A stretch of DNA of 27,794 nucleotides from Candidatus Nitrosotalea bavarica. Its GTDB lineage: Archaea > Thermoproteota > Nitrososphaeria > Nitrososphaerales > Nitrosopumilaceae. Made by a program: the position numbers and the translations under genes. The stretch is from NCBI RefSeq assembly GCF_900167955.1, contig NZ_FUYK01000001.1, positions 51,550-79,343 of the forward strand, read 5' to 3'. Positions 578 to 27,794 of this stretch are shown piece by piece. Numbering within the stretch: the stretch's first letter is position 1; each line of letters begins with the position of its first letter. Under the pieces are notes generated by a model, which did not search any database, was not told where the DNA came from, and saw only the letters and a list, made by a program, of their open reading frames with translations.

Positions 578-2068
578 TTAATCTTTTCTCATTGAAGACG
601 ACGTCTTGCTTAATGAATCATCAGTTTTATCAGATTCAATAGATTCCTTGGTCATCTCTATTCCAAAACGCGCTTTGACAGCATCAACGGTATCATTGTA
701 ACCATCCTGTAAGAGATGTTTTATTGTGTTTGATGAAAAATCAAAAATTTTATTTGAGACAGAATAATCATCATGTTTTCTTTGTACTCTAATTATTTCA
801 CCAATATTGAAAGCTCCTTCAACACCATCACGATACATAGTTGCTCTTACTCCTTCTAATCGTTCTTGAACAGGTATTGGTCTATCAAGTAATTCATCAA
901 TCATTTTCTGGGTTGTGCCATGATCCTTTGCCAACTGGATCAACTCTTTTACTAGTTGCGAATACATCTGGAAAGCTAACAATACGGTCTCATCATTTTT
1001 GGATCTATCACCAAAAGATATGTCAGAATTTCTATTCACTGCTCCATCATGATCCCAAGGAACCTTGTCAACTCTTGCGGGGTGTAAGTTTACCTGAAAT
1101 ACATTAAGCTTTGGCACTGCATCCTTTACTTTCTTTCCAAAGTACCAATATTGCCGATGAGCCATAACCACTTGCAATAATGGAGTATTAGCTAGAATAC
1201 CACCATCCCAGAAATAACGTGTCTCTTTTTTATAGCTCTTTGTTTGAGGATCATAGCGCTCCGCTTCAATTTGAGTATAATCAAAATTTATGGGAACTGC
1301 AGCACTTGCAATGACATGATCAGAAGTTATTCCTTGAGGATATTTTATTTCATGTTCGTAACCAATTATTTTTTGGTTCTCATTTGAACCATTATTATTC
1401 TCTACAATTAATCTCCCATATCCTGATTTTCTAGTACCATCTTCTTTTGCATAACTATCAAACACTACAGGCAAGCTTTCCATTACATCTACCGTAACCA
1501 GTAGCAACCTGGGTTGATTATCCTCACGACTGGTAGCAATGGGAAACTTTGCAAATTTTTCAAGACTCGCTTTTAGCGGATGATTGTCATATCGGTACCA
1601 TGAATTAAGAGGATCAAAGAATTTTTTATCGGGTTCTGCATGAGGCGGAGAAAAGACATTGGGTGCTCCGGTTATAGCAAATTCCTTTGATGAGTAATAT
1701 CTCCTTGCCGTTTCTCCTTTAGCAACATCGAAAAATTTGTTCCAATATCCCCACCACGACATCATGTAATCAGCAAATTTATCCGGAATGGATTCTGTTG
1801 AAATATAATTCCAAAAGTCAATTAGTTTTTCAGCTGATCCTTCCCATGTCTTGTTTTCTATCACATAACTTGTAAGAATTGCAGAATTTATTGCACCAAT
1901 AGAAGTTCCTGCAATAATATCAAATATCTGTCTACCAGCATCTCCTATTTTTTTGTCTCGGTATTTTATGAATTGGTATCCTGCCTTGTAAGCCCCAACC
2001 TCATATGCACCAAGTGAGCCTCCGCCTTGGAGAATCACTGCTCTTTCTTCCTTTGGAATTGATGCCAT
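578..2068 (-). CDS. Patatin-like phospholipase family protein
   Basis: 496-aa ORF with the full patatin catalytic signature: oxyanion-hole GGGSLGAYEVG near the N-terminus, nucleophile elbow GTSIGA (GxSxG), and the catalytic Asp motif in YFWDGGILANTPL (DGG). Confidence 0.9.
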   Translation of the reverse strand: MASIPKEERAVILQGGGSLGAYEVGAYKAGYQFIKYRDKKIGDAGRQIFDIIAGTSIGAINSAILTSYVIENKTWEGSAEKLIDFWNYISTESIPDKFADYMMSWWGYWNKFFDVAKGETARRYYSSKEFAITGAPNVFSPPHAEPDKKFFDPLNSWYRYDNHPLKASLEKFAKFPIATSREDNQPRLLLVTVDVMESLPVVFDSYAKEDGTRKSGYGRLIVENNNGSNENQKIIGYEHEIKYPQGITSDHVIASAAVPINFDYTQIEAERYDPQTKSYKKETRYFWDGGILANTPLLQVVMAHRQYWYFGKKVKDAVPKLNVFQVNLHPARVDKVPWDHDGAVNRNSDISFGDRSKNDETVLLAFQMYSQLVKELIQLAKDHGTTQKMIDELLDRPIPVQERLEGVRATMYRDGVEGAFNIGEIIRVQRKHDDYSVSNKIFDFSSNTIKHLLQDGYNDTVDAVKARFGIEMTKESIESDKTDDSLSKTSSSMRKD

Positions 2069-3921: not shown

Positions 3922-5307
3922 TTAAAGGTCAAACTCTAGAGTTTTTGGCGAACCAACTTTTGTTTTGAGGCGGCCAGAATTAATAGCTGCTTTGAACACT
4001 TTAAAATCACGTTCTACCTGGTCAGCATATGCAATTGAATACTGAACCATGGCATCATCAAAATTTTCTTTTGTTCCTAAATATCCTGCAATCATCTCCA
4101 CTTCCCCAGCTTTTGCATGGGCCCGTGCCAATGCCCAACCACATACGGTTGCATATGCGGTGAGAGTTCTAGGGTTAAAGGTTTCAACTTCAGGGGAGAC
4201 TTTCATATCACGAAGTTGTCTAACGTAGAAATCTCGTCCATTGAAATTGCGATACCAGCCTAAAAATATGTCACTAGATGCCTGCATAAGATGTTGTCCG
4301 TGCACAACTCTGTGACCTTGATGTTCAAAGAGACTTTTTCCAAATGTGGGCTCCAATACGGATCTTCTTGCTTCCTTGACTTGAAGAAATAGTGGATCAT
4401 CTTCGTCGGCAAGAAACAGAGATACATAACAACGCAGTCCTACACTACCAACTCCAACAACTTTTACGGCAGCATCTTGAAAATGAAAACGCTCCAACAA
4501 ATGTTGTCTGTCAGTCTGTAATGATTTTCTATAATCCTCAAGACTTGTCTGTGCTAGCTTGTTTATGTCCAGATTTTGGACGTGATAGATAAGTGGAGGA
4601 TCCTCCTTTATTCTTGTATTTCCTTTTACAGCCTCTGTAAGCTTTGGAAATATAGCTTCAGATGTTTTGGAGAGTGCCTTGGGTTGTGCACTCTTCAAAC
4701 GATCAATCATTTGTTTATCTTTTTTAAAAAATTCTAAAAGATTTTCGACTGTGATTTGCGTATACCATCTCTGAAGTACAGTCTGATCAGCAAATTCTGA
4801 CATGTGTTCCCTATAAGATGCAACAGCTGCTCTGACTGCATTTTCTGCAACATTCTTTGAAAAATCAAGATCCCTTGCGGCAAGTTCCATACTTACTACA
4901 AGTCGTTTAATGTCCCACTCCCATGGACCAGGAAATGTCTCATCAAAATCATTGATATCAAAAACCATATTGCGTTCTGCTGATGCAAAACCTCCAAAGT
5001 TCATCAAATGACAATCACCACACAACTGGACATGTATTCCAGATACTGGAGAATGCTCTAGATCCCGAGCTTGAATGATTGATGTACCACGAAAGAATTT
5101 GAAAGTAGATTCTGACATTCTCTGATATCTAATGGCGATAAGACCAGGAATTCTGTCAACATTAGTATCTTCTAATAGTTTTATTGGATCAATCGAAGAC
5201 GAACGAGGTTCAAACTTGGCATGCGTGCTACGTGAACATTTTTCGCGAAGTACCTTTCCTTGTTGGATCCTTTCTGCTTTAGTGATGATGTTTGGTTTCA
5301 TTTCCAC
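3922..5307 (-). CDS. DUF2252 domain-containing protein
   Basis: 461-aa ORF with blocks typical of the DUF2252 family: RIPGLIAIRYQRMSESTFKFFRGTSIIQARDL, VQLCGDCHLMNFGGFASAERNMVFDINDFDETFPGPWEWDIKRL. The HxxN and DxNDFD arrangement resembles aminoglycoside/protein-kinase-like catalytic loops (inference). Confidence 0.85.
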   Translation of the reverse strand: MEMKPNIITKAERIQQGKVLREKCSRSTHAKFEPRSSSIDPIKLLEDTNVDRIPGLIAIRYQRMSESTFKFFRGTSIIQARDLEHSPVSGIHVQLCGDCHLMNFGGFASAERNMVFDINDFDETFPGPWEWDIKRLVVSMELAARDLDFSKNVAENAVRAAVASYREHMSEFADQTVLQRWYTQITVENLLEFFKKDKQMIDRLKSAQPKALSKTSEAIFPKLTEAVKGNTRIKEDPPLIYHVQNLDINKLAQTSLEDYRKSLQTDRQHLLERFHFQDAAVKVVGVGSVGLRCYVSLFLADEDDPLFLQVKEARRSVLEPTFGKSLFEHQGHRVVHGQHLMQASSDIFLGWYRNFNGRDFYVRQLRDMKVSPEVETFNPRTLTAYATVCGWALARAHAKAGEVEMIAGYLGTKENFDDAMVQYSIAYADQVERDFKVFKAAINSGRLKTKVGSPKTLEFDL

Positions 5308-13041: not shown

Positions 13042-14178
13042 TTAGACCAGAACGACTTCTTTTTTCTTGAAAAAAACAAATCCCAAGACAAATAGTCCAC
13101 TAATAGATAAAATAAGATACGGAAGGGAGCTACCAAATGAATTGGCAATTATACCTATAATAAGAGGTCCAAAGGCCCACCCTATTCCAAAGGTTGCCTC
13201 ATATGCACCAATTAATGCTCCTGCATTTTCTTTTGCCCTTCTCATTATAATCTCAAATGTTAGTGGGAAGTACACACTAAATCCAAATCCAAGTAAGAGT
13301 ACCGCTATGCTAAACTCCACCATAGAATGAGAGTAAAACAGCATCAGCATTCCTCCAGATATTGATAAAATAACTAGCAGTAAACTAGCAAGAAATTTTT
13401 TCATTAAAAAGTTAGATACAAATAATGAAACAAGCCGAGAAATTCCAAAGACAAAGAAGAGTAGCTCAATGTTGGATTCCGAGATCTTTCTCTCACTCAT
13501 ATACGCAGGAATTATTGCCAAAAAGACACCAAAACTTACACTACAAAATAATAAAATGGCAATCACTGCTGGAAATTTTATCAAATGTTTTGCAGATGCA
13601 ATGGATATGATTCCAGTGCGAGGTGTCTTGCCACTTTGTGATAGCACGAGTGAAAAGACTAGCGAAGTTGCAATTGAAAATGCAGCAATCTGGAAAATTA
13701 TTCTATATGAAACATCAAAGTGTTCAATCAGGAATGAACCAACCAGAGGTCCAATCATAAGACCCGCAACAAAAAATGCCATGAATTGAGATATTGCCTT
13801 GACTCTATTTTGGGGAGTAGTAGATTGCGATATTATTGATTCACATGGAGGCCAGAAAAATGAATGTGCAACTCCAACTAGGGTTCTAAATATTATAACT
13901 TGGGGTACAGAGTCTGCTGCAGATAGTAAGTAGATGGATATTGTATCAATAACTAATCCCAGAGAAAGAAGAAGGCCCTTGTTGAATCTGTCAAGTAATA
14001 ATCCTACAAAGAGCGGAATGAACATGTAAGGAATAAAATTTGAAAATCCAATTACTCCAAGGTCAAAGTACGATGCGCCAAGATCTTTAGAAAATAATGG
14101 AACCACTGGATTATGCATTCCGTATGAAAATCCAACAATTAGCGCTATGATATAGACAAGAATTACTTTTCTGTTCAT
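13042..14178 (-). CDS. MFS transporter
   Basis: 378 aa with about 11-12 TM helices in two halves. An MFS loop 2-3-like motif (GLLLDRFNKG) is present. The ATG lies 2 nt after the ubiE-like stop, suggesting an operon. Confidence 0.85.
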   Translation of the reverse strand: MNRKVILVYIIALIVGFSYGMHNPVVPLFSKDLGASYFDLGVIGFSNFIPYMFIPLFVGLLLDRFNKGLLLSLGLVIDTISIYLLSAADSVPQVIIFRTLVGVAHSFFWPPCESIISQSTTPQNRVKAISQFMAFFVAGLMIGPLVGSFLIEHFDVSYRIIFQIAAFSIATSLVFSLVLSQSGKTPRTGIISIASAKHLIKFPAVIAILLFCSVSFGVFLAIIPAYMSERKISESNIELLFFVFGISRLVSLFVSNFLMKKFLASLLLVILSISGGMLMLFYSHSMVEFSIAVLLLGFGFSVYFPLTFEIIMRRAKENAGALIGAYEATFGIGWAFGPLIIGIIANSFGSSLPYLILSISGLFVLGFVFFKKKEVVLV

Positions 14179-14180
14179 CT

Positions 14181-14870
14181 TTACTTGAATGCCGCAACCA
14201 TAATTGCGCCCCCAAGCATTCCTTTCTCAAATTCCACACGTGAGAATCTTTCAAGAAGGAGTGACTCGAGTTTTTTATTCTGAGGCCAGAGTTTGTAGGT
14301 GCCATATAGAGTAGCAAACTTGAGGCCAAGTCTTCCTCCACCAATGACTGCCAATATAGGAAGTATTGCTCGGAGATAAAATGACACCCCTACTCTGATT
14401 ATTGGATTATCAGGCTTGCCAAGATCAACAATAACAAATCTTCCACCTTTTTTTAATACGCGATGTATTTCAGATATTGCGATTCTGAGGTTAATTGCAT
14501 CTCTAAGTGAGTAGCCTGCAAGTACTACATCAAACTGTTCGTCACGAAATGGAATGTGTTCAAAGACTCCACATGTTAGTTTGGGAGCTATAGAAAATAA
14601 TCGACTAGTATTTTTTAGCATTGGTCTTAATGGATCATACAAAGTTATATCCAGATTACCAGAACAGATCTTGGATGCTGTCTTTGACATGTTTCCAAAA
14701 CCGGAACCGGCATCAAGTATATGATCTCCCTGATTTACTCTTCCCTTGATTCCGCGTTGACGAAACTCTGAATCCCTTCCAAGTGAAATCAAAGAATTAA
14801 CTTTATCATAGACAGGAATTATTTTCTCCAAGACATCGAGGACTTCACCCCAATAACTTCCAAGGCCCAC
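14181..14870 (-). CDS. ubiE: Class I SAM-dependent methyltransferase, UbiE/MenG (demethylmenaquinone methyltransferase) family
   Basis: 229 aa. It has the UbiE/COQ5-type N-terminal block YDKVNSLISLGRDSEFRQRG and SAM-binding motif I ILDAGSGFGNMS, plus post-I/II blocks (DVVLAGYSLRD, LKKGGRFVIVD). GTG start. Confidence 0.85.
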   Translation of the reverse strand: MGLGSYWGEVLDVLEKIIPVYDKVNSLISLGRDSEFRQRGIKGRVNQGDHILDAGSGFGNMSKTASKICSGNLDITLYDPLRPMLKNTSRLFSIAPKLTCGVFEHIPFRDEQFDVVLAGYSLRDAINLRIAISEIHRVLKKGGRFVIVDLGKPDNPIIRVGVSFYLRAILPILAVIGGGRLGLKFATLYGTYKLWPQNKKLESLLLERFSRVEFEKGMLGGAIMVAAFK

Positions 14871-14976
14871 ATCAGACTAGAAATGGTACGACATTATATG
14901 TCATCAGGGTTTTGACATATGTTACACTCAAAGGTTTTACCAAAAATTAAATCAGCCACAATCTTTCTCTGGACTA

Positions 14977-17487
14977 GTGTACTATTGTCCCAAGTGTAAA
15001 TCAAAGATAGACGTACAACGTACTTTTAATCAAAAAATACATTTTGGATGTCCCAAGTGTAAGATCGAAGACATCATAGATTCTAAAAAGAATTTGGATG
15101 AGGCATTTTTAGAATTTTTAATAAAATTTGACAATGACGAGCTACCAGCTAGTGATAAATCTGGAACAACTCTGGAAAAAGAAGGAATTTTGCAGACAGA
15201 AGATGAGATAAACAAAATGATAGGCAGTTCCAAGATTGCAGAAATTACAAGGTCTATTTTGTTCTCAAAGAGGCACTATGTCTCACACTTTAAGGTAATT
15301 GAAGAGCCCGACCCTGAGATGGGCTCTACTGTGACAGATTCAGGTCTTGACCAACGAATAGTTGAGGCATTGGAATCAAAAGGAATAGAGAGATTCTACA
15401 AATTCCAGGAAGAGGCTATACACCATATTGTTTCTGGCGATAATGTTGTAATTACTGCCCCCACTGCATCAGGAAAGACAGAGGCCTTTGTAGTACCAAT
15501 CATAGAAAGAATAAGCAATTCAAAAAGTTCCATCTCAGCAATACAAGCAATTTTTGTTTATCCAACCAAGTCTCTTTCACGAGACCAATATCCAAAGATT
15601 AAAGAAATTGCAGACAAGCTTGATATCAAATGTGCAGTATTTGACGGGGACACCAAACAAATAGAGCGAACTGAAATTCTTGCCAGTCCACCTCAAGTAA
15701 TAATAACAAACTTTGATGTGCTACACTATCACCTATGGCACAGAACTAGATTTGCTTCTTTGTTTAGTACAACAAGATTTCTTGCAGTCGATGAAGCTCA
15801 TGTCTACTCTGGAATTTTTGGCTCCAATGTTCATTATATCATAAAACGATTAAAAAGGATTGCACCAAGACTACAGATAATTGCAGCATCTGCAACTTTG
15901 GATAACGCGTTATCATTTTGCCAGATGTTGTTTGGAGTAAAGATGGTCCAGGTTTCCGGCTCTGGCAAAAAAGGCAAGATAGAATTTTCAATGCTCTTTC
16001 CTTCGTTGATGACACAACGTGCACTGATGATTGATATTCTAAAAAAATTGACAGCAAAACAACACAAGACTTTGGTCTTTTCAAACTCACATCTAAATTC
16101 CGAACTTTTGGCACTTCAGGCAAGAAGACAAAAAGTCGACATCAAGGTTCATCGGGCAGGCCTTATGGCAAATTATAGAAGATCAGTTGAGAACTTGTTC
16201 AAGACTGACAAGTTACTTGCAATATCTGCCACACCTACACTTGAACTTGGAATTGATGTAGGAAATGTCGATGGGGTGATATCATCTACCATACCAGTCA
16301 ATAGACTCACGCAGAGAATAGGCAGGGCTGCAAGAAAAGGCCAAGGAGGATACGCATTCCTAGTGCTTGGCAACGACCCAATCTCGCAATATTACAAGAA
16401 CCATCCAGGAGATTATTTTGAGGATGTAGAACAAATCTACATTGATCCAAAAAATCCCTTTGTTGAAGAGTTTCAGGTTATTGCAATGGCGTGTGACAAA
16501 CCAATTGCAAAACACGAATTGCCTGAACATAAAGAGGTTATCGAAAGACATGTTGGCTCAGGCAATCTAGTTCTAATTGAAAATAGATATGTTCCAAATT
16601 ATGATCAGATAAAATCTATTTTAGAAGATTATAGCATAAGAGGAATAGGAAGATCAATTGACATATTTCTAAATGGTAAAAAAGTTGGAGACCGAGTATT
16701 ACCAATTGCATTAGAAGAGCTTCATCCACAAGCGGTTTACTTTTTGGCTGGTACTAGATATCAAGTCAAAGAAATAGGGTACCCAGAAAAGATGACTGCA
16801 AAATTGGAATACCTTCCAAAGAATTATCCATACTATACAAAGTCTTTAACAGAAGAATGGCCAACCATTGAAACAATTTTTGAGAAAAGATTTGCAAATG
16901 GAATCGAAGTTGCATTTTGTAAATTACATATTCAAAAAAGAGTGTACGGCTATGTCAACTTGGAGCTGGGTCAAGAGGCAGCACAAGGTCAAAAGATAAT
17001 TTTAGAAAAACCACTTGATTATGATTTTGTTACAAAGGGAATTGTCTTCAAGGCACCAAGACCACTAGATGAAATAAGTAAAACAGAGAATGAAGAATAT
17101 GTAGAAGCTAGCGGATATCATGCCACAGAGCATGTAGTAATTGAAGGAAGTAATATGATAACAGGCGGGGTATCACAGGACCTAGGCGGCATTTCTCTTG
17201 GAACATCAGGCCTTGTCTTTGTTTATGATTCTGCCATAGGAGGAAATGGTGCAAGTAGAGCACTATTTGATAGGCTTGAGAAGGCCTTTGAGCGTAGTTT
17301 GAATATAGTATCAGAGTGTCCATGCCAAAGCGAATCTGGCTGTCCTCGCTGTACCTTCTCTTACAGATGTGGTAACAATAATGAATACCTACACAAGCTT
17401 TCGGCAAAAGAGATTCTCCAGAGAATTACAGATGGTGAAAAAACAGAGATTACAGAACCTGTCGAGGGGGATAAACCTCTAGTCTAG
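14977..17487 (+). CDS. DEAH-box superfamily-2 helicase with N-terminal zinc ribbon and C-terminal DUF1998 zinc module (MrfA/YprA/Hrq1-like)
   Basis: 836 aa. N-terminal paired CxxC (YYCPKCKSK...FGCPKCK). Helicase motifs I TAPTASGKTEAF, II VDEAHVYSG, III AASATL and VI QRIGRAARKG. C-terminal 4-Cys DUF1998 signature CPCQSESGCPRCTFSYRCGNNNEYL. GTG start. Confidence 0.9.
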   Translation: MYYCPKCKSKIDVQRTFNQKIHFGCPKCKIEDIIDSKKNLDEAFLEFLIKFDNDELPASDKSGTTLEKEGILQTEDEINKMIGSSKIAEITRSILFSKRHYVSHFKVIEEPDPEMGSTVTDSGLDQRIVEALESKGIERFYKFQEEAIHHIVSGDNVVITAPTASGKTEAFVVPIIERISNSKSSISAIQAIFVYPTKSLSRDQYPKIKEIADKLDIKCAVFDGDTKQIERTEILASPPQVIITNFDVLHYHLWHRTRFASLFSTTRFLAVDEAHVYSGIFGSNVHYIIKRLKRIAPRLQIIAASATLDNALSFCQMLFGVKMVQVSGSGKKGKIEFSMLFPSLMTQRALMIDILKKLTAKQHKTLVFSNSHLNSELLALQARRQKVDIKVHRAGLMANYRRSVENLFKTDKLLAISATPTLELGIDVGNVDGVISSTIPVNRLTQRIGRAARKGQGGYAFLVLGNDPISQYYKNHPGDYFEDVEQIYIDPKNPFVEEFQVIAMACDKPIAKHELPEHKEVIERHVGSGNLVLIENRYVPNYDQIKSILEDYSIRGIGRSIDIFLNGKKVGDRVLPIALEELHPQAVYFLAGTRYQVKEIGYPEKMTAKLEYLPKNYPYYTKSLTEEWPTIETIFEKRFANGIEVAFCKLHIQKRVYGYVNLELGQEAAQGQKIILEKPLDYDFVTKGIVFKAPRPLDEISKTENEEYVEASGYHATEHVVIEGSNMITGGVSQDLGGISLGTSGLVFVYDSAIGGNGASRALFDRLEKAFERSLNIVSECPCQSESGCPRCTFSYRCGNNNEYLHKLSAKEILQRITDGEKTEITEPVEGDKPLV

Positions 17488-17764: not shown

Positions 17765-18694
17765 TTACCATCTAACAATAGGGGGTAATTTTTCAATATC
17801 TTTTGGCAATAATATGGTAAAAGTAGTAGGATGATTTCTTGCGGAGAGTGTGCCGTGATGCTGTTCAATTATGTTTTTACAACTTGGCAGACCTAGACCA
17901 GTACCGTGTTCTTTTGTAGAAAATAATGGCTCAAAAATTCTTTGCATCGATTCATCAGGTATTGGAGAGCCAGAGTTTTGAACATCTATTTGGATCTCAT
18001 TTGCTTTCTTGACAAATCTTATCAAAATTTCTCCAGATGTATCTTCGCCAATTGATTGTATTGCATTTGTTAACAGATTGTAAAAAACAACTTCCAATTT
18101 TGTACCATCACATTTTAGTGAAATATCATTTTCTGGTATGATTATTTTCATATTGTCTGGAACTCGGATTCCTTCTAATGAATTGTGAATTATATTCAAT
18201 AAAGAATTTTTTTCTAACATCAACGGCTGTGTTCTTGCAAAATTCAAAACATCGCTTATGAGCATATTCATTTTAGTAACAGAACGGCTTATTTTTGCAA
18301 AATGTTCAAAAATTTCCCGATCAATCTTGTCTTTATATCGGATGGTCATTACATCTACTGCATTTTTGATTATAGACATGGGATTTCTTAGGTCATGGGC
18401 TAGATCAGATGCCAATTCACCCAAAATTTCCAGTTTTTCTTTTTTGATGTCTTTTTCAGTTTTAATCTGTTGTACACTGGTAACAAATTCACATCTTAAT
18501 CCAAGTGATTCGTGATGCTTCCAAATCGCTTCTTCGTTGGGAGCATCCAAGATACAGTATAACTTGTCTTCATTTTTGTTGTAAAATATCTCTAAATGTT
18601 TAACACCAAAATTATCAACTGGCGAATTTACTGCTTTTTCCAGATCTTCAGGATTAAGACCTTTCATATTGTGACCGTCAACAAAAATAGGCAT
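17765..18694 (-). CDS. Cytoplasmic sensor histidine kinase with N-terminal DUF4242 (SCO4226-like) domain
   Basis: 309 aa with no TM segments. The N-terminus MPIFVDGHNMKGLNPEDLEKA...GVKHLEIFYNKNEDKLYCILDAPNEEAIWKHHESLG matches the DUF4242 pattern (MP.fMDvH...g.t.e.l..aH...gV....w.d...g.v.CL.eAP..EA....H). H-box LAHDLRNPMSII, N-box YNLLTNAIQS, G-boxes VQNSGSPIP and GTGLGL. Confidence 0.85.
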   Translation of the reverse strand: MPIFVDGHNMKGLNPEDLEKAVNSPVDNFGVKHLEIFYNKNEDKLYCILDAPNEEAIWKHHESLGLRCEFVTSVQQIKTEKDIKKEKLEILGELASDLAHDLRNPMSIIKNAVDVMTIRYKDKIDREIFEHFAKISRSVTKMNMLISDVLNFARTQPLMLEKNSLLNIIHNSLEGIRVPDNMKIIIPENDISLKCDGTKLEVVFYNLLTNAIQSIGEDTSGEILIRFVKKANEIQIDVQNSGSPIPDESMQRIFEPLFSTKEHGTGLGLPSCKNIIEQHHGTLSARNHPTTFTILLPKDIEKLPPIVRW

Positions 18695-21636: not shown

Positions 21637-21679
21637 GCAAGTTACATTTAATTGCATCAAGAATTTAGGCGTTAATTAT

Positions 21680-21772
21680 GCCGGGGTAGCTCAGCCTGGC
21701 CTAGAGTGCCAGTCCATACAAAGGGTATTACTCATAATCTGGAGGTCGTGGGTTCGAAACCCACCCCCGGTA
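21680..21772 (+). tRNA. tRNA with anticodon CAT (elongator Met or Ile2-type) containing a 17-nt non-canonical intron
   Basis: Hand-folded cloverleaf. Acceptor GCCGGGG/CCCCGGT (G1:U72 wobble), U8 A9, D arm GCTC-AGCCTGGCCTA-GAGT, T arm GTGGG-TTCGAAA-CCCAC, 5-nt variable loop AGGTC, discriminator A. The anticodon arm forms (CCAGA-CTCATAA-TCTGG, anticodon 21733-21735) only after removing 21713-21729. A T-run (cgttttgttt) follows the 3' end. Confidence 0.85.
21713..21729 (+). other. Predicted tRNA intron between mature positions 30 and 31 (non-canonical site)
   Basis: Removing tccatacaaagggtatt restores a perfect 5-bp anticodon stem. The same boundaries fit a bulge-helix-bulge-like fold: outer helix GAG(21704-06)/CTC(21731-33), central 4-bp helix TGCC(21707-10)/GGTA(21724-27, one G:U), and 3-nt bulges AG|T (21711-13) and TT|A (21728-30), each cut after bulge nucleotide 2. 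Confidence 0.6.
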
Positions 21773-21940
21773 TACACCGTTTTGTTTAATACTCTAACAG
21801 GCGTATTATGCAGGCTTGAGCCAAAAGACTTCTAATCTCAAAAAATCTTCGGTTTACGACTATGATACACTAACGGACGGCATATTCAAACTCATAAGAA
21901 AAGATCTGTCTGTTGAAAATTTCATCCACAATTGTTTATA

Positions 21941-23631: not shown

Positions 23632-23898
23632 TTATGAACGCTTGATGGCTCGTTTGACTGATTCTCTATTCTTAAGAAGATAGTAGGTAGAACTGTTGGA
23701 TTTGAACCCCACTTTGGTAATTCCACTTGTAATAAGCCTTACAAGTTTTGCGGGATGTGTTTCCACATCAAACCATTGCCATCCCAAATATTGTTTGTTG
23801 GGTAGATTCTCCTCTTCTTTTTGTACTGCTAGCTGAAGAGTCTTGAGATATTCCGGCTTTTGAGCTAGTAGCTGGACAGCATTGTTATAATCTTGCAT
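23632..23898 (-). CDS. Hypothetical small protein (about 88 aa)
   Basis: The ORF is open from 23943, but the first 15 codons (MFIKKTYAYMYRCVC) look like AT-rich read-through, so MQDYNNAVQLL (ATG 23898) is a more plausible start. No recognisable motif. It lies divergent to the hyf-like cluster and convergent with the kinase. Confidence 0.4.
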   Translation of the reverse strand: MQDYNNAVQLLAQKPEYLKTLQLAVQKEEENLPNKQYLGWQWFDVETHPAKLVRLITSGITKVGFKSNSSTYYLLKNRESVKRAIKRS

Positions 23899-24034
23899 AC
23901 ATACACACCTATACATATATGCATATGTCTTTTTTATAAACAATTAAATGCATATTGTATGAATTTAGCCTCAAAGATCCATTCTATGAAAAATAATTTC
24001 AACAATATCATGGGATCCACACTGGCTGACAATA

Positions 24035-26074
24035 ATGATTAGTAATCTTGTTTTGTTCCAGATTCCAATTTTGCTGTTCTTGGTAGGAGCACTATCTGGT
24101 CTGTTATCACGAAATAGCAGACTTGCACGACCAATGATATTTGTCCCTGCCATGATTGGTTCAATTTTTACCATCATATTTTCAATCGACATCATAACTG
24201 GCGCATCATTAAAATTGGCTATACCAAACATACTTCCTTTCTTTAATCTTGAAATCTTTGTTGATGGAGTATCTGCATTTTTCATGTTAATAATTGGAAT
24301 AGTATCATTTGCTGTTTCATTATACTCGATCGGATATTCAAAGGAATACGAAACTAAAAAAAGAATATCGGTCTTTGGATTTCTTTTTAATATTTTTATC
24401 CTATCAATGATTCTTGTTGTGTCATCAAACAATGCTTTTTTCTTTTTGATATTTTGGGAATTAATGTCACTAGTTTCGTTTTTCTTGGTAATCTATGATC
24501 ATGACAAGGAAGAAAATCTAAAGTCAGGAATTACATATCTTGTGATGACACATTTTGGAACTGCTCTTATTTTTGTGTCATTCTTACTTGGATATATTCA
24601 GACAGGTAGTTTTAGTTTTGATTCACTGCGTGAATCGTCTGCTTCATTTCCATTGTTGGTAAAAAATCTTGTATTTGCTTTTGCATTTATTGGATTTGGA
24701 GTAAAAGCGGGAATTGTACCGCTACATACTTGGTTGCCCCATGCACATCCATCTGCTCCAAGTAATGTTTCTGCATTAATGTCTGCAGTTATGATAAAAA
24801 TGGGAATTTATGGCATAGTTAGGACAGTTTTTGATTTTTCTGGCTTTGGTGCCTCCCCTGACTTTGCATGGTGGGGAGTTCTCATGATTGCTGTAGGTTC
24901 CATATCTGCAGTAAGCGGCGTGCTATATGCAGTAATTGAGCATGACATAAAACGAGCCCTTGCCTACTCTAGCATAGAAAACATAGGGATAATTCTAATC
25001 GGATTAGGACTCTCAGTTGTCTTTGCGGCATATCACCTTGTATCACTCTCAGTATTGGCCTTTGTTGCAAGTATGTATCACACCATAAACCATGCAGTCT
25101 TCAAGGGATTACTTTTCATGGGTGCAGGCTCTGTTGTATATGCTACCCATTCTAGAAACATAGAAGATCTTGGTGGAATCATCAAGCAGATGCCATGGAC
25201 TTCACTGTTATTTCTAATTGGGGCTGTCTCCATAGTTGGATTGCCACCATTCAATGGTTTTGTAAGCGAGTGGTTGACGTTGCAGGCTTTTCTTTCAAGT
25301 TATCAGATACCGTCAACAATACTGCAAATATCCATTGCATTTGCAAGCTTGCCTTTTGCACTCACAATAGGAATTGCATCTGCCACATTTGTTAGATTGT
25401 TTGGAATAACATTTCTTTCAAGAGCAAGAAGTAAACATGCTCTTAATATCAAAGAAGTTCCACGCAGCATGATTATTGGAATGGCAGTGTTGGCAGCTGC
25501 TTGCATCCTACTTGGAATACTTGCATCTTTAGGAATTTCGTTGATAAGTTCCGCATTCCATTTACCTTCACAACCTTCCAGTCCCTTGGATAGTATAACG
25601 TTGCAAAATAATGCAAAGAATGCAGTACATCTCTCCATGCCATTTGTTCTGATATTGTTCTCAGCTATAGCAGTTGGTGCTTTTGGTTTTATTCGAACAA
25701 TTGGTGGAAAAACCAGCAAGACAATCTACGGAACATGGGATTGTGGATTTGGAAATCTAAATGAAAAAATGGAATACACTGCAACATCATTATCTCAACC
25801 AATACGTGCTGTCTTCAAAGTTTTTTTCAAGCCACATAATGTTACAAGTAAGGAATTTTTTGTATCAACAAATCAATACTTGATAAAATCTATCAAATTC
25901 AATTCTATAACAAAAAATATCTTTGAGGAAAGCCTGTACCAACCAATAATATCTTCCACTCTTAGAGTCTTGGACAAGATACGAAAAATCCAGACTGGAA
26001 AGATAAACTCATACTTGCTTTACATAATGATAACCGCAGTCGCACTTCTCTTGTTTGTGAGGTTGAGCCATTAA
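24035..26074 (+). CDS. hyfB: HyfB-like proton-conducting membrane subunit (hydrogenase-4 component B / NuoL-MrpD antiporter-like family)
   Basis: 679 aa with about 16 TM helices. The antiporter-type core is GIVPLHTWLPHAHPSAPSNVSALMSAVMIKMGIYGI, plus SSIENIGIILIGLG, MYHTINHAVFKGLLFMGAGSV and GLPPFNGFVSEW. Size is close to E. coli HyfB (about 670 aa, from memory). Confidence 0.85.
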   Translation: MISNLVLFQIPILLFLVGALSGLLSRNSRLARPMIFVPAMIGSIFTIIFSIDIITGASLKLAIPNILPFFNLEIFVDGVSAFFMLIIGIVSFAVSLYSIGYSKEYETKKRISVFGFLFNIFILSMILVVSSNNAFFFLIFWELMSLVSFFLVIYDHDKEENLKSGITYLVMTHFGTALIFVSFLLGYIQTGSFSFDSLRESSASFPLLVKNLVFAFAFIGFGVKAGIVPLHTWLPHAHPSAPSNVSALMSAVMIKMGIYGIVRTVFDFSGFGASPDFAWWGVLMIAVGSISAVSGVLYAVIEHDIKRALAYSSIENIGIILIGLGLSVVFAAYHLVSLSVLAFVASMYHTINHAVFKGLLFMGAGSVVYATHSRNIEDLGGIIKQMPWTSLLFLIGAVSIVGLPPFNGFVSEWLTLQAFLSSYQIPSTILQISIAFASLPFALTIGIASATFVRLFGITFLSRARSKHALNIKEVPRSMIIGMAVLAAACILLGILASLGISLISSAFHLPSQPSSPLDSITLQNNAKNAVHLSMPFVLILFSAIAVGAFGFIRTIGGKTSKTIYGTWDCGFGNLNEKMEYTATSLSQPIRAVFKVFFKPHNVTSKEFFVSTNQYLIKSIKFNSITKNIFEESLYQPIISSTLRVLDKIRKIQTGKINSYLLYIMITAVALLLFVRLSH

Positions 26075-27015
26075 TGCCTAGTCTTGCAGAGATTGTAATT
26101 GGTATAGTCCAATCTCTTTTCATCATATCATTTTCGCCTCTGATGGTTGGAATAATGAATAAAACCAAGGCAAGAACGCAGAAAAGAATCGGCTCAAGCG
26201 TATTTCAGCCCTATTATGACATCATAAAACTTGTACGTAAAGACGAAGTGGTGTCAGACCAGAGTTCATGGATCTTTAGATCGTCACCGTGGATTAACTT
26301 TGTAGCTATTGGTACTGCCGCATTTTTTATTCCCATATTTCTTTCATATTCACCGTTTGGATTAGTAGGAGATATACTGCTAGTTATTGGCCTGTTTGCC
26401 CTTGCTAGATTTTTTACAATGTTGGCAGGTCTTGACGTATCTAGTTCCTTTGGCGGATTTGGAAGTAGTAGGGAGATGATGATGTCTATGCTTTTGGAAC
26501 CTGCATTGTTTCTTACAATATTTGTTGTATCTCTCACATATGGAGGAAGTAACATTAGTGGCATAGTAACTACATCTGCGGATTCTTCATTGATTTCTCA
26601 TCCACAACTAATCTTTGCAATGATTGCAATGTTTGTCATCATATTAGGTGAAACGGGTAGATTACCATTTGGTAATTCAGCAACACATCTTGAACTTACC
26701 ATGATTCATGAGGCAACGGTTCTAGAATATTCAGGTAAGAGTTTAGCTCTCATAGAATGGTCATCAGCAATAAAGCAACTCATACTGTTATCGTTAATTA
26801 TCAATATCTTTGTTCCGTGGGGAATCTCTTCATCTGTATCAGTACCATTACTTACAACAGGACTGCTATTGTTTATCGTAAAAGTTTCATTACTTGCTGT
26901 ATCTATCGCATTTCTAGAATCAAGAGTTGCCAGGTGGCGTCTTTTTAGATTGCCAGATTTGATTGCGATGGCAATTGCTAGTTCCATGATTGGAGTTGTT
27001 TTCTACTATCTCTAG
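26074..27015 (+). CDS. hyfC: HyfC/HycD-like membrane subunit (NuoH family)
   Basis: 313 aa. FQPYYDIIKLVRKDEV, LARFFTMLAGLDVSSSFGGFGSSREMMMSMLLEPALFL and ETGRLPFGNSATHLELTMIHEATVLEYSGKSLALIEW track the recalled E. coli HyfC/HycD sequence block for block. The ATG overlaps the hyfB stop (TAATG). Confidence 0.88.
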   Translation: MPSLAEIVIGIVQSLFIISFSPLMVGIMNKTKARTQKRIGSSVFQPYYDIIKLVRKDEVVSDQSSWIFRSSPWINFVAIGTAAFFIPIFLSYSPFGLVGDILLVIGLFALARFFTMLAGLDVSSSFGGFGSSREMMMSMLLEPALFLTIFVVSLTYGGSNISGIVTTSADSSLISHPQLIFAMIAMFVIILGETGRLPFGNSATHLELTMIHEATVLEYSGKSLALIEWSSAIKQLILLSLIINIFVPWGISSSVSVPLLTTGLLLFIVKVSLLAVSIAFLESRVARWRLFRLPDLIAMAIASSMIGVVFYYL

Positions 27016-27684
27016 TTGATAATTATGGACACACATCAAATCATGATATTTTCTGGTGCTATACTCCTCATTGCTACCTTTGGTATTGTCACAAGACGTG
27101 GATTTGCGGACTGGCTTGGTGCATATAGATATCAATCAATTGTTCTTGCAGCAGTGACTGCACTAATTGCATATGTGACAGGAATTTGGGAGATCTATAT
27201 TGCTGCAGGTCTCACCCTTGTAATAAAATCAATAATAATTCCCAAAGTCTTACTTTACGTAACAAGAAATCTTGAGATAGAATTCAAGGTAGAAACAAAT
27301 CCATACGTAAGTCTTAGAGCATCAGTAATAATCTCCGCATTTCTTGTTGCGTTGTCATATTTTTTAACACAGCAAATACCATTCAAGTCAGATCCAATAG
27401 TAAGCACTTACTTGCCAATATCTATCGCATTATTTCTCATAGGTCTTTTTGTAATTGTAAACAGGAGATCTGCACTCAATCAAGTAGTTGGTCTTTTGAT
27501 AATAGAAAATGGGCTCTTTCTATTCACCCTGACATTGACGCATGGTGTATCACTCATCATCGAGATGGGCATTTTTGCAGACATATTGGTTGGAATCATA
27601 ATTTCATCCATATTGCTGCTTAGGATTAGCCGCACATTTGATAGCCTAGATGTGGGAAAACTGCAAAACTTGAGGGATGATTAG
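27016..27684 (+). CDS. hyfE: HyfE-like hydrogenase-4 membrane subunit (NuoK-related)
   Basis: 222 aa. The C-terminal half NRRSALNQVVGLLIIENGLFLFTLTL...IIEMGIFADILVGIIISSILLLRISRTFDSLDVGKLQNLRD aligns by eye with recalled E. coli HyfE (QRNILRQIFGYCLMENGSHLV...EIGIATDAIFAVIVMVLLARKI..HGTLDVNNLTALKG). TTG 27016 directly abuts the hyfC stop; ATG 27025 is an alternative start. Confidence 0.82.
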   Translation: MIIMDTHQIMIFSGAILLIATFGIVTRRGFADWLGAYRYQSIVLAAVTALIAYVTGIWEIYIAAGLTLVIKSIIIPKVLLYVTRNLEIEFKVETNPYVSLRASVIISAFLVALSYFLTQQIPFKSDPIVSTYLPISIALFLIGLFVIVNRRSALNQVVGLLIIENGLFLFTLTLTHGVSLIIEMGIFADILVGIIISSILLLRISRTFDSLDVGKLQNLRDD

Positions 27685-27794
27685 ATGGAGTTGACAGATA
27701 TTTTCAGTGGATCAAATGGTACTATACTTGCACTACTCTTGACTCCAGTCATAGGAGCAATTCTTGTTACTGTGATAAGACAAAAAAGAATATC
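27685..27794 (+). CDS. hyfF: HyfF-like antiporter-type subunit, N-terminal fragment truncated by the window end
   Basis: The ATG immediately follows the hyfE TAG. MELTDIFSGSNGTILALLLTPVIGAILVTVIRQKRI resembles the HyfF N-terminus (..[23 protein letters not shown]) and sits at the expected position after HyfE. Only 36 codons are visible. Confidence 0.55.
   Translation, partial: MELTDIFSGSNGTILALLLTPVIGAILVTVIRQKRI

What the first reader, a model, noticed from the sequence alone, without database searches (positions are those of the whole stretch)
24035..27794. Hyf-type (hydrogenase-4 / energy-converting-hydrogenase-related) membrane module in an ammonia-oxidising-archaeon-like genome, cut off before its catalytic subunits
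Four translationally coupled + strand genes encode clear HyfB-, HyfC-, HyfE- and HyfF-like proteins. The junctions are TAATG at 26072-26076, TAG directly followed by TTG at 27013-27018, and TAG-ATG at 27682-27687. Sizes are close to the E. coli Hyf subunits as I recall them (about 672, 315 and 216 aa).

The HyfC and HyfE matches are to the formate-hydrogenlyase/hydrogenase-4 lineage, not to the complex I NuoH/NuoK sequences. The order B-C-E-F lacks HyfA and HyfD.

Everything else in the window (TopoIB, the HP/HB-cycle gene pair, the orphan kinases) points to an aerobic Nitrosopumilales-type ammonia oxidiser. That guild is not normally credited with group 4 [NiFe] hydrogenases. The cluster is therefore either a real energy-converting hydrogenase/formate-hydrogenlyase-like complex or an Ehr-type derivative that has lost the NiFe site and couples something else to ion translocation. 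Either would be a physiologically significant accessory respiratory module. The decisive genes lie beyond base 27794.
Basis: partly seen in the sequence, partly recalled or inferred. Interest (0 to 1): 0.78.

Follow-up and report, generated by a model that had tools for sequence, protein, structure and literature searches.

The report
Hydrogenase-like respiratory complex lacking nickel site
The four genes are real and begin a six-gene, hydrogenase-4-like membrane complex in the acid-soil ammonia oxidiser Nitrosotalea, but its catalytic subunit has lost every nickel-iron-binding cysteine, so it is a known 'hydrogenase-related' (Ehr) complex of unknown function and not a hydrogenase.

Summary
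Window 24035-27794 holds tightly packed HyfB-, HyfC-, HyfE-like genes and the first 36 codons of a HyfF-like gene.

A peat-metagenome contig matching the last 6,038 bases of the window at all but one position supplies the missing genes. These are HyfF, a fused NuoC/NuoD-type large subunit (541 aa) and a NuoB-type small subunit with an N-terminal ferredoxin-like domain.

The large subunit is 100% identical to a Candidatus Nitrosotalea bavarica protein and is most similar to E. coli HycE. However, all four NiFe cysteines are replaced (RxCGxCxxxH becomes RIAGDESIAN; DPCxxC becomes DLSYSG), and the protein ends right after the motif.

The replacements are invariant or near-invariant in 120 archaeal homologues. 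They recur in Bacillota with the same six-gene order. dN/dS is 0.05-0.17.

The iron-sulfur ligands, coupling loops and pump residues are kept.

It is therefore an Ehr complex, most likely an iron-sulfur-dependent ion-translocating oxidoreductase with unknown partners.

This is already published: NDEV_0880-0885 in N. devanaterra (2016) and a 2023 review calling the archaeal clusters Ehr. Interest is low to moderate.

The parts
24035..26074 (+). hyfB-like gene (679 aa): antiporter-like subunit with a C-terminal extension that carries the ND3-type loop
   Evidence: NCBIfam NF005086, 682 bits, above the 667 cut-off. Pfam Proton_antipo_M. Best solved relative is HycC at 253 bits. The ND3-loop cysteine is conserved (WDCG aligned to HycC Cys537 in WVCG), and the TM7 lysine is present (GFGVKAG) where HycC has Leu. 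TM5 Glu (WE) and TM12 Glu (FVSE) motifs are present.
26074..27015 (+). hyfC-like gene (313 aa): ND1/NuoH-type membrane anchor
   Evidence: Pfam NADHdh, 1e-40. Best solved relative is HycD at 166 bits, against MBH 89, MBS 55 and complex I 30-32. The TM5-6 coupling loop reads ...THLELTM(I/V)HEA..LEYSG and is conserved from archaea to Bacillota. Its start overlaps the hyfB stop (TAATG).
27016..27684 (+). hyfE-like gene (222 aa from TTG; alternative starts ATG 27025 or 27043): the C-terminal half is NuoK/MrpC-like
   Evidence: NCBIfam 'hydrogenase 4 membrane subunit' NF008556, 105 bits, below the 136 cut-off, residues 9-220 on profile positions 6-215 of 216. Pfam Oxidored_q2 at residues 132-220. 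Only weak hits to MbsG/MbhG/MrpC. A membrane Glu lies in LIIENG (read from the translation; the aligned MbsG segment has Glu in SIMETG).
27685..27794 (+). 5' end (36 codons) of the hyfF-like gene, cut by the window edge
   Evidence: The sequence continues on contig L001 as a 501-aa antiporter-like protein (L001 6089-7594). Its best NCBIfam match is 'hydrogenase 4 subunit F', 514 bits, below the 610 cut-off. L001 and the window differ at 1 of 6,038 overlapping bases.
23944..24034 (+). Upstream intergenic region, probably holding the promoter
   Evidence: Near-identical in two closely related loci (L009, L016) and recognisably similar in two more distant ones (L010, L013)...CCATTCTATGAAAAATAATTTCAACAA.ATCATGGGATC.ACACTGGCTGACAATAATG. 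Promoter function is inferred, not tested.
23632..23898 (-). Divergently transcribed 88-aa orphan gene (MQDYNN...) that accompanies the cluster in most archaeal loci
   Evidence: Visibly more conserved than the complex's own subunits across the five loci where it lies next to hyfB. It is also adjacent in L044 and L045, but not in L041-L043. The family has 55 clusters; all that carry a name are thaumarchaeal. No significant Pfam or PDB match. Any functional link to the complex is unproven.

Best explanation
The window holds the first four genes of a six-gene operon, hyfB-hyfC-hyfE-hyfF-hyfG'-hyfI'. It encodes an Ehr (energy-converting-hydrogenase-related) complex of Candidatus Nitrosotalea bavarica or a near-identical population.

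**Architecture (shown)**
- Membrane arm: two antiporter-like subunits, an ND1-like anchor and a NuoK-like subunit.
- Peripheral arm: a fused NuoC/NuoD-type 'large subunit', and a NuoB-type 'small subunit' fused to a truncated ferredoxin-like domain.
- The complex descends from the formate-hydrogenlyase / hydrogenase-4 branch of the complex I superfamily.
- It cannot hold a NiFe centre and so is not a hydrogenase. All four metal-binding cysteines are replaced by Ala/Ser, Glu, Ser and Gly, and the protein has no C-terminal maturation extension.

**Mechanism (inferred)**
- Electrons from a soluble low-potential carrier, most likely ferredoxin, enter through the single extra [4Fe-4S] cluster.
- They pass to the NuoB-type cluster and reach a remodelled, carboxylate-bearing pocket (Gly-Asp-Glu...Asn). 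An unidentified acceptor is reduced and protonated there.
- This chemistry is coupled, through the conserved beta1-beta2, ND1 and ND3 loops, to proton movement through HyfB and HyfF.
- In an aerobic ammonia oxidiser the complex could equally run backwards and use the proton gradient to make low-potential reductant.

I put about 0.85 on the identity (Ehr, not a hydrogenase), about 0.6 on 'redox-coupled ion translocation', and no more than about 0.3 on any specific donor/acceptor pair.
For: **Downstream genes**
- They were recovered from contigs carrying the exact HyfC protein. L001 matches the window at all but 1 of 6,038 overlapping bases.

**Large subunit**
- Pfam Complex1_30kDa plus Complex1_49kDa.
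- Best solved relative is E. coli HycE at 294 bits. MBH scores 155, complex I 120 or less, and MBS 77.
- Residue-level alignment: DRVCGICGFAH becomes ERIAGDESIAN, and DPCYSCTD becomes DLSYSGND followed by the stop.
- No paired-cysteine NiFe motif occurs in any of 120 closest homologues (one has a lone Cys, ERISGDECVAN); the motifs read [SAT]ER[IV][ASV]GDE..AN and DLSYSGNDL.
- The same signature and gene order occur in Acetobacterium, Desulfosporosinus, Peptococcaceae and Dehalobacterium. The signature is also found in Ca. Aquicultor.
- Purifying selection acts on all six genes: dN/dS 0.05-0.17.
- Catalytic-pocket proton residues described for HycE are kept: beta1-beta2 loop His and Glu, canopy Arg and Asp, and the adjacent His.

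**Small subunit**
- Proximal-cluster ligands are conserved in 116 of 120 homologues.
- The N-terminal domain carries exactly C...CxxCxxC in about 115 of 120.

**Membrane arm**
- Pump and coupling motifs are present.

**Literature**
- The cluster was tabulated for Ca. N. devanaterra in 2016.
- Cys-less clusters of this kind have been classed as Ehr in ammonia-oxidising archaea and in Sulfobacillus.
Against: - No experiment exists for this complex or, as far as the searchable literature shows, for any Ehr complex. Only nine papers mention them, and the four read for this point all say the function is unknown or never investigated.
- No gene for a donor or acceptor enzyme sits next to the cluster in archaea or Bacillota. 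Only regulators do: TrmB, TetR and histidine kinases.
- The complex I quinone-ligating tyrosine is absent: T. thermophilus Nqo4 Tyr87 aligns to Gly236. From my own knowledge, Acetobacterium woodii lacks quinones. Both points weaken a quinone-acceptor model.
- A few archaeal variants have lost the ferredoxin-like domain altogether: L013, L014 and P0470. This hints that electron input may be dispensable.
- Absence of hyp maturation genes could not be checked genome-wide.
Confidence: 0.85

Rival explanations
1. It is a real group 4 [NiFe] hydrogenase or formate hydrogenlyase-2 that evolves or consumes H2.
For: All subunits are most similar to FHL/Hyf proteins. Databases and early genome papers label it 'NiFe-hydrogenase-4'.
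Against: - All four NiFe cysteines and the motif histidine are replaced, and the replacements are invariant or near-invariant in homologues.
- There is no C-terminal extension for endopeptidase maturation.
- There is no HyfA, formate dehydrogenase or formate channel nearby.
- The Pfam NiFeSe_Hases score is 18.5 bits, below the 25.8 cut-off.
- HydDB explicitly excludes Ehr proteins as non-H2-metabolising.
Confidence: 0.02
2. It is the organism's ordinary complex I (nuo), or an Mrp antiporter operon mislabelled as hyf.
For: Pfam assigns generic complex I / Mrp domains to every subunit. NCBI names several homologues 'NADH-quinone oxidoreductase subunit C' or 'NuoB'.
Against: - Bit scores to complex I subunits are two- to five-fold lower than to FHL.
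- There are only six genes, with no NuoA/J/N-type set and no MrpE/F/G.
- The quinone-binding Tyr is replaced by Gly.
- The NuoC-NuoD fusion and HyfE-type subunit are hallmarks of the FHL branch.
Confidence: 0.02
3. The complex no longer does redox chemistry. It is a proton/cation-translocating machine, useful for pH or ion homeostasis in acid soil, and the hydrophilic cap and its iron-sulfur cluster are structural or regulatory.
For: - The electron-input module shrinks stepwise: eight Cys (two clusters) in Bacillota, four Cys (one cluster) in most archaea, and the whole domain deleted in L013, L014 and P0470.
- No redox partner genes are linked.
- Homologues are common in acidophilic Nitrosotalea from peat and in other terrestrial lineages.
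Against: - The NuoB-type cluster ligands are conserved in 116 of 120 homologues and across domains.
- The remodelled pocket and the proton-delivery residues around it are invariant, and dN/dS of the large subunit is 0.10. That is hard to explain for a purely structural cap.
- Strict anaerobes living at neutral pH carry the same complex.
Confidence: 0.12
4. The cluster is a decaying remnant (pseudogenes) of an ancestral hydrogenase.
For: - The catalytic cysteines are lost.
- One related MAG (L016) shows HyfF and HyfG split into pieces.
Against: - All six ORFs are intact on contig L001, and the four membrane-arm genes (hyfB-F) are also intact on L002.
- dN/dS is 0.05-0.17.
- The replaced motifs are invariant over archaea and bacteria.
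- The L016 breaks are confined to one long-read MAG and are probably sequencing indels.
Confidence: 0.01

Closest known systems
Ehr (Ech/energy-converting-hydrogenase-related) complexes. Examples: NDEV_0880-0885 of Ca. Nitrosotalea devanaterra, the six-gene clusters of Sulfobacillus, and EhrA-S of Geobacter sulfurreducens.
   Same: - Homologous to group 4 hydrogenase large and small subunits, plus antiporter-like and NuoH-like membrane subunits.
- The large subunit lacks both NiFe-binding motifs.
- The N. devanaterra cluster has the identical gene list hyfB, C, E, F, G, I. Its large subunit is 65% identical.
- Sulfobacillus also has six syntenic genes with HyfB/HyfE/NuoH/NuoL homology.
   Different: Nothing essential; this is a member.
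- Not stated in the papers I could read: the invariant GDE...N / DLSYSGNDL signature shared with Bacillota and Ca. Aquicultor, and the single-cluster ferredoxin remnant fused to the small subunit.
- The Nitrospira Ehr is reported to lie near group 4f. Its relation to this clade was not tested.
E. coli hydrogenase-4 / formate hydrogenlyase-2 (HyfABCDEFGHI) and FHL-1 (HycBCDEFG, PDB 7Z0S)
   Same: [quoted passage not shown]
- NuoC-NuoD fusion; a HyfE-type subunit; similar subunit sizes.
- Conserved beta1-beta2 loop His/Glu, canopy Arg/Asp and the ND3-loop Cys.
   Different: - No NiFe ligands and no C-terminal processing tail.
- No HyfA/HycB, HyfD, HyfJ or FdhF.
- HyfH is reduced to one cluster and fused to HyfI.
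- The TM7 lysine is present where HycC has Leu.
- Only 35-37% identity to E. coli-type large subunits. Other, uncharacterised Cys-containing relatives (Planctomycetota, Desulfotomaculum) are closer, at up to 46%.
Pyrococcus furiosus MBH (6CFW) and MBS/Mbx (6U8Y)
   Same: - Same superfamily and the same arrangement of an ND1-like anchor plus antiporter-like subunit.
- From my own knowledge, MBS is the precedent for a hydrogenase-derived complex that lost H2 chemistry and reduces another substrate (sulfane sulfur).
   Different: - Lower similarity: large subunit 155 bits (MBH) and 77 bits (MBS).
- No Mrp-type MbhA-G/MbsA-G sodium module.
- From my own knowledge, MbsL keeps part of the cysteine set; here none remains.
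Respiratory complex I (Nuo/Nqo) and its ferredoxin- or F420-dependent relatives (NDH-1, Fpo)
   Same: - Common core of NuoB/C/D/H/K/L-type subunits.
- Conserved His of the beta1-beta2 loop: Nqo4 His38 aligns to His183.
- The canopy residue is Asn-His as in NDUFS2 rather than Ser-His as in HycE.
   Different: - The quinone-ligating Tyr87 aligns to Gly.
- Far fewer subunits, and much lower sequence scores.
- Reversed orientation of the antiporter-like subunit is expected from the FHL/MBH lineage but was not tested.

Membership tests
Group 4 [NiFe] hydrogenase (Hyf / FHL type) | Large subunit N-terminal motif RxCGxCxxxH, supplying two Ni/Fe cysteine ligands | tested here: not met
   HycE DRVCGICGFAH aligns to ERIAGDESIAN. 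The paired cysteines are absent in all 120 closest homologues.
Group 4 [NiFe] hydrogenase (Hyf / FHL type) | Large subunit C-terminal motif DPCxxCxx(H/R), supplying two further cysteine ligands | tested here: not met
   HycE DPCYSCTD aligns to DLSYSGND, then L and the stop. All 120 homologues carry a Cys-less variant of this motif, DLSYSGNDL in 113 of them.
Group 4 [NiFe] hydrogenase (Hyf / FHL type) | Maturation apparatus: a C-terminal extension cleaved by an endopeptidase, plus hyp genes | tested here: inconclusive
   There is no C-terminal extension; the protein ends one residue after the motif. E. coli-type relatives carry about 30 extra residues. No 'hyp' entry appears in the N. devanaterra supplementary files searched. 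The N. bavarica genome could not be scanned for hyp or hycI.
Group 4 [NiFe] hydrogenase (Hyf / FHL type) | Membrane subunits homologous to HyfB/C/E/F | tested here: met
   NF005086 scores 682 bits, above the 667 cut-off. The best NCBIfam hits of the other two subunits are the HyfE and HyfF models, both below cut-off. Best solved relatives are HycC and HycD.
Group 4 [NiFe] hydrogenase (Hyf / FHL type) | Linked electron-donor module (HyfA/HycB ferredoxin subunit, formate dehydrogenase H, formate channel) | tested here: not met
   None lies within 10 kb downstream or 24 kb upstream. The ORF upstream of hyfB in Bacillota is a TetR regulator, not HyfA.
Ehr (energy-converting-hydrogenase-related) complex | Large and small subunits homologous to group 4 hydrogenases but lacking the NiFe-binding cysteines | tested here: met
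Ehr (energy-converting-hydrogenase-related) complex | Encoded together with antiporter-like (NuoL/M/N-type) and NuoH-type membrane subunits | tested here: met
   Six overlapping or abutting genes: hyfB-C-E-F, then the large and small subunits.
Ehr (energy-converting-hydrogenase-related) complex | Retains the NuoB-type [4Fe-4S] cluster ligands | tested here: met
   GSCNGC, GACAC and PGCPP are present in 116 of 120 homologues and in all Bacillota loci examined.
Respiratory complex I (Nuo) | Quinone headgroup ligands in NuoD (T. thermophilus Nqo4 His38 and Tyr87) | tested here: not met
   The His is conserved (His183), but Tyr87 aligns to Gly236.
Respiratory complex I (Nuo) | An 11-14 subunit operon including NuoA, J and N, with highest similarity to Nuo proteins | tested here: not met
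   There are six genes only. Complex I scores are 120 bits or less for the large subunit and 30-32 bits for the ND1-like subunit, against 294 and 166 for FHL.
MBS/Mbx-type sulfane reductase or MBH-type sodium-coupled hydrogenase | An Mrp-derived multi-subunit sodium module (MbhA-G / MbsA-G), with highest similarity to MbsL/MbhL | tested here: not met
   Only a HyfE-type subunit gives a weak MrpC/MbsG-like hit, E = 0.06. MbsL scores 77 bits and MbhL 155 bits, against HycE at 294.

The most novel reading that the evidence does not exclude
The 'GDE...N' Ehr subfamily is shared by terrestrial ammonia-oxidising archaea, anaerobic Bacillota and Ca. Aquicultor. It may be a distinct enzyme class in which the former NiFe pocket has become a carboxylate-lined, proton-coupled site for a non-H2 substrate.

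In aerobic nitrifiers it would run in reverse. It would act as a proton-gradient-driven generator of reduced ferredoxin from the quinol pool or another mid-potential donor. That would supply the low-potential electrons these autotrophs otherwise have no obvious way to make. The steep pH gradient of acidophilic Nitrosotalea would favour this direction.
Probability: 0.15. Interest if true: 0.7.

Novelty: already known. Interest (0 to 1): 0.3.

Why it matters
[quoted passage not shown] How they obtain low-potential reductant, and how acidophilic lineages manage their proton economy, are open questions.

A conserved, strongly selected accessory complex I-like machine is a candidate player in both. 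However, its existence is already recorded, and this window adds no functional evidence.

The practical lesson concerns annotation. These genes should not be counted as hydrogenases in metabolic reconstructions. Databases still label them 'NiFe-hydrogenase-4' or 'hydrogenase large subunit'.

The incremental points found here would help design mutagenesis or structural work:
- an invariant Gly-Asp-Glu...Asn pocket shared across two domains of life;
- covariation of the Glu with the His-to-Asn change;
- an electron-input domain trimmed to a single cluster.

Tried and rejected
- **Exact-protein look-up of HyfE from the TTG start** found nothing, because gene callers used a later ATG. HyfC worked.
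- **AlphaFold2 model of the large subunit** from 25 homologues was poor: mean pLDDT 59.6, with the catalytic region below 50. No fold search was run, because matches would be meaningless. Sequence homology to HycE over residues 29-540 already fixes the fold.
- **Neighbour-joining tree with 100 bootstraps.** The archaeal clade is solid (100). Its grouping with the Bacillota 'GDE...N' proteins has only 21% support, and deeper nodes have none. I therefore make no claim about direction of transfer, nor about which true hydrogenase subgroup (4a versus 4f) is the parent.
- **The roughly 185-aa ORF upstream of hyfB in Bacillota** was suspected to be HyfA. It is a TetR regulator.
- **A beta-carbonic anhydrase** two genes upstream of hyfB in Acetobacterium bakii suggested a CO2-hydration role. 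In the other Bacillota loci only one or two upstream ORFs were scanned and none was a carbonic anhydrase, so I dropped the idea.
- **The conserved 88-aa upstream gene** was tested as a possible dedicated partner. It also occurs without an adjacent Ehr cluster, so the link is unproven.
- **A literature search for 'Ehr'** was swamped by electronic-health-record papers. A phrase search then found only nine relevant papers, and none of the four read for this point reports functional data.
- **Herbold et al. supplementary text** held no hydrogenase table.

Full report

Yes. The + strand carries ORFs at 24035-26074 (679 aa), 26074-27015 (313 aa) and 27016-27684 (222 aa from TTG). An ORF opens at ATG 27685 and runs off the window. 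The junctions are exactly as described.

- The 679-aa protein matches NCBIfam 'hydrogenase 4 subunit B' above its curated cut-off (682 versus 667 bits).
- The 222-aa protein matches 'hydrogenase 4 membrane subunit' end to end, but below cut-off (105 versus 136 bits).
- Pfam gives only the generic complex I / Mrp domains.
- Against solved structures, the 313-aa protein is closest to E. coli FHL HycD (166 bits; complex I ND1/NdhA 30-32 bits). The 679-aa protein is closest to HycC (253 bits).
- The HyfE start is ambiguous between TTG 27016 and ATG 27025 or 27043. Callers on other archaeal loci use the long form.

The surrounding genes confirm an ammonia-oxidising archaeon. They include eukaryote-type topoisomerase IB, an ADP-forming CoA ligase plus enoyl-CoA hydratase pair, glutamate dehydrogenase and several histidine kinases.

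**2. The genes beyond the window.**

An exact-sequence look-up of the HyfC-like protein found eight contigs, largely JGI metagenome contigs.

Contig L001 is identical to the window from base 21757 to the end, except for one mismatch in 6,038 bases. It continues for 9 kb. The genes that follow are:
- HyfF-like (501 aa);
- a 541-aa fusion of Complex1_30kDa and Complex1_49kDa (NuoC+NuoD, as in HycE/HyfG);
- a 267-aa protein with a NuoB-type domain behind a weak ferredoxin-like region;
- a 51-aa CxxC ORF;
- a TrmB-family regulator and another histidine kinase.

Successive genes overlap or abut, so this is one operon of six structural genes.

The 541-aa protein is 100% identical to 'hydrogenase large subunit [Candidatus Nitrosotalea bavarica]'.

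**3. The decisive test: the NiFe site.**

Aligned to E. coli HycE (7Z0S, E = 2e-86, residues 29-540):
- the N-terminal motif DRVCGICGFAH reads ERIAGDESIAN;
- the C-terminal DPCYSCTD reads DLSYSGND, followed by Leu and the stop codon.

All four cysteine ligands and the motif histidine are gone. There is also no C-terminal tail for endopeptidase maturation. The Pfam NiFeSe_Hases score is below threshold.

This is not decay:
- In the 120 closest homologues (59-100% identity) the motifs are [SAT]ER[IV][ASV]GDE..AN and, almost invariantly, DLSYSGNDL.
- Residues Gly236, Asp237, Glu238, Asn242 and Ser535 through Asp540 are invariant in a 25-sequence alignment.
- dN/dS for the large subunit is about 0.10, and 0.05-0.17 for all six genes.

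The proton-handling residues that the FHL structure paper assigns to the HycE pocket are retained. These are the beta1-beta2 loop His and Glu, the canopy Arg and Asp, and the neighbouring His. The canopy Ser is Asn here, as in complex I. The complex I quinone-ligating tyrosine is not present: Nqo4 Tyr87 aligns to Gly236, while His38 is conserved.

**4. Iron-sulfur clusters.**

The small subunit keeps the four ligands of the NuoB-type proximal cluster (GSCNGC...GACAC...PGCPP). They are present in 116 of 120 homologues.

Its N-terminal extension is a remnant of a HyfH/HycF-type 2x[4Fe-4S] ferredoxin:
- Bacillota homologues carry both CxxCxxCxxxCP motifs, eight Cys in all.
- Archaeal proteins keep only the last Cys of motif 1 and the first three of motif 2. 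The pattern C...CxxCxxC occurs in about 115 of 120 homologues, and the fourth position is never Cys.
- By the known ligand-swapped wiring of such ferredoxins, this set is exactly one complete cluster. That step is inference from established ferredoxin structure.
- A few archaeal variants (L013, L014, P0470) have deleted the domain entirely.

**5. Membrane arm.**

- HyfB and HyfF both carry the canonical TM5 Glu, TM7 Lys (GFGxKAG...P.HxWLP.AH) and TM12 Glu motifs. HycC itself has Leu at the TM7 position.
- The ND3-type loop cysteine of HycC (Cys537) is conserved in HyfB as WDCG.
- The ND1-type TM5-6 loop of HyfC has a family-specific but highly conserved sequence, THLELTM(I/V)HEA..LEYSG, shared by archaea and Bacillota.
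- HyfE has a membrane Glu (LIIENG, read from the translation) at the position where the aligned NuoK/MrpC-like MbsG has one (SIMETG).

Three of the conserved coupling loops of the complex I superfamily were checked (ND3-type, ND1-type and beta1-beta2) and all are present. The membrane arm looks competent to translocate ions.

**6. Relatives and distribution.**

A scan of one genome per species found nine thaumarchaeal loci. It also found 24 Bacillota loci, including Acetobacterium bakii and A. fimetarium, Desulfosporosinus acididurans, Peptococcaceae and Dehalobacterium. These are 41-47% identical.

The Bacillota clusters have the same six-gene order, the same fused small subunit and the same signature: ERISGDE[ST]F..N and NLSYAGNDL. 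Where I scanned it (three loci), the ORF directly upstream of hyfB in Bacillota is a TetR regulator.

An exhaustive HMMER search of 1.8 billion representatives gave 829 proteins with E below 1e-30. Among 153 aligned sequences (the best 150 representatives plus three archaeal references):
- about 120 are Cys-less, and most of these have ..SGD....H / NLSY(S/A)GNDL;
- 31 retain cysteines (ERxCGxCxxSH ... ELCYxCxDR, with no tail). The closest is 46% identical and comes from Planctomycetota (Ca. Wujingus);
- E. coli-type HycE/HyfG are only 35-37% identical.

Glu at the second-cysteine position goes with Asn at the former histidine: 16 of 18 Glu sequences end in Asn, whereas non-Glu sequences mostly end in His. 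This defines the subfamily to which the archaeal, Bacillota and Ca. Aquicultor proteins belong.

A neighbour-joining tree supports archaeal monophyly (bootstrap 100) and nothing deeper.

Named archaeal carriers include Nitrosotalea bavarica, N. devaniterrae, N. okcheonensis, Nitrosotenuis, other Nitrosopumilaceae, Nitrososphaera evergladensis and Nitrososphaerales MAGs.

**7. What is already known.**

- The 2016 N. devanaterra genome paper states that the organism 'contains an Ni-Fe hydrogenase'. It tabulates NDEV_0880-0885 as hyfB, hyfC, hyfE, hyfF, hyfG and hyfI under 'Hydrogenase / formate hydrogen lyase'.
- The 2017 comparative paper, which introduced N. bavarica, notes the 'Ni-Fe hydrogenase' in some Nitrosotalea genomes.
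- A 2023 ISME Journal review says the genes in Nitrosotalea, Nitrososphaera and Nitrosocosmicus are Ehr complexes that lack the CxxC motifs, with unknown benefit.
- The same six-gene Cys-less cluster was described in Sulfobacillus.
- Ehr complexes are also reported in Geobacter, Nitrospira and relatives of Cyanobacteria. The function is always given as unknown.
- HydDB deliberately excludes Ehr from the hydrogenases.

**8. How it most likely works.**

Shown:
- the subunit inventory and the loss of the NiFe site;
- retention of the iron-sulfur ligands, the pocket proton pathway, the coupling loops and the pump residues;
- strong purifying selection.

Inferred:
- A soluble low-potential carrier, probably ferredoxin, delivers electrons. 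No donor enzyme is linked, and the input module is ferredoxin-like.
- Electrons pass through one extra [4Fe-4S] cluster to the NuoB-type cluster, and from there to a substrate in the carboxylate-lined pocket.
- Substrate reduction and protonation drive proton translocation through HyfB and HyfF, or the reverse.

The acceptor is unknown. Menaquinone is the obvious candidate in archaea. However, the Tyr ligand is missing, and the same enzyme occurs in Acetobacterium, a genus whose type species lacks quinones (my own knowledge).

The main rival is a non-redox ion-translocating role. The shrinking input domain suggests it. The conserved cluster ligands and the invariant pocket argue against it.

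**9. Verdict.**

The cluster is a member of a known, uncharacterised family and has already been reported for this genus.

Interest is modest. Its value lies in correct annotation, and in a few sequence-level details that could guide experiments.

Noticed in passing
window 23632-23898 (- strand); also L009 4447-4791, L010 4438-4782, L013 4457-4747, L016 4438-4755, L044 6001-6291, L045 6001-6267: An 88-aa orphan protein (MQDYNN...KRAIKRS) is encoded divergently, directly upstream of hyfB. Across these loci it is visibly more conserved than the Ehr subunits themselves. The family is small (55 clusters); every member that carries a source name is thaumarchaeal. It has no significant Pfam or PDB match. 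In L041-L043 a 69%-identical copy sits without an adjacent Ehr cluster, so the link may be positional rather than functional.
   Followed up: partly
window 21679-21773 (+); L001 1-176; L004 1-16: An intron-containing tRNA lies between the topoisomerase IB gene and the histidine kinase. ARAGORN calls it Tyr-ATA; by eye the anticodon looks like CAU. Contig L001 diverges completely from the window upstream of the last 17 bases of this tRNA (AAACCCACCCCCGGTAT), and contig L004 begins exactly there. This looks like an att-type junction of a strain-variable integrated element at the tRNA 3' end. The Ehr side is the conserved flank.
   Followed up: partly
L001 10006-10161 (just beyond the window); L008 7097-7252, L009 12417-12572, L011 6393-6566, L016 12410-12571: A 51-aa ORF (CxxC...HxxCxxxH, zinc-ribbon-like, with a weak Yippee/Mis18 hit at E = 0.02) overlaps the end of the small-subunit gene. 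It is conserved (80-86% identity) only in the N. bavarica-like clade.
   Followed up: partly
window 17765-18694 (- strand): A soluble histidine kinase whose N-terminal sensor domain matches Pfam SCO4226-like 'nickel responsive protein' (E = 2e-10). It lies 5 kb from a hydrogenase-like operon that can no longer bind nickel.
   Followed up: no
L013 11617-12162, L014 1409-1999, protein P0470: Some thaumarchaeal versions of the small subunit have deleted the whole ferredoxin-like domain, leaving only the NuoB-type cluster. Together with the eight-Cys Bacillota form and the four-Cys standard archaeal form, this makes a stepwise reduction series of the electron-input module.
   Followed up: yes
L016 8497-11627: In one long-read MAG (MFD01231.bin.3.58) HyfF is split into three ORFs and the large subunit into two. 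These are probably homopolymer indel errors, but real pseudogenisation in that lineage is not excluded.
   Followed up: no
L029 3430-4753 (Acetobacterium bakii): A beta-class carbonic anhydrase gene and a TetR regulator sit immediately upstream of the Bacillota version of the operon. In the other Bacillota loci only one or two upstream ORFs were scanned, and none was a carbonic anhydrase.
   Followed up: partly
L041 1-11007 compared with window 13042-17487: A Nitrosopumilaceae contig carries the same MFS transporter, UbiE-type methyltransferase and DEAD/MZB helicase genes as the window, together with the 88-aa gene. It has no Ehr operon within the 11 kb held. This suggests presence/absence polymorphism of the operon in this genomic neighbourhood.
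   Followed up: no
window 3922-5307 (-), 578-2068 (-): A DUF2252 protein (480 bits) and a patatin-like phospholipase lie at the left end of the window. Neither was examined further.
   Followed up: no
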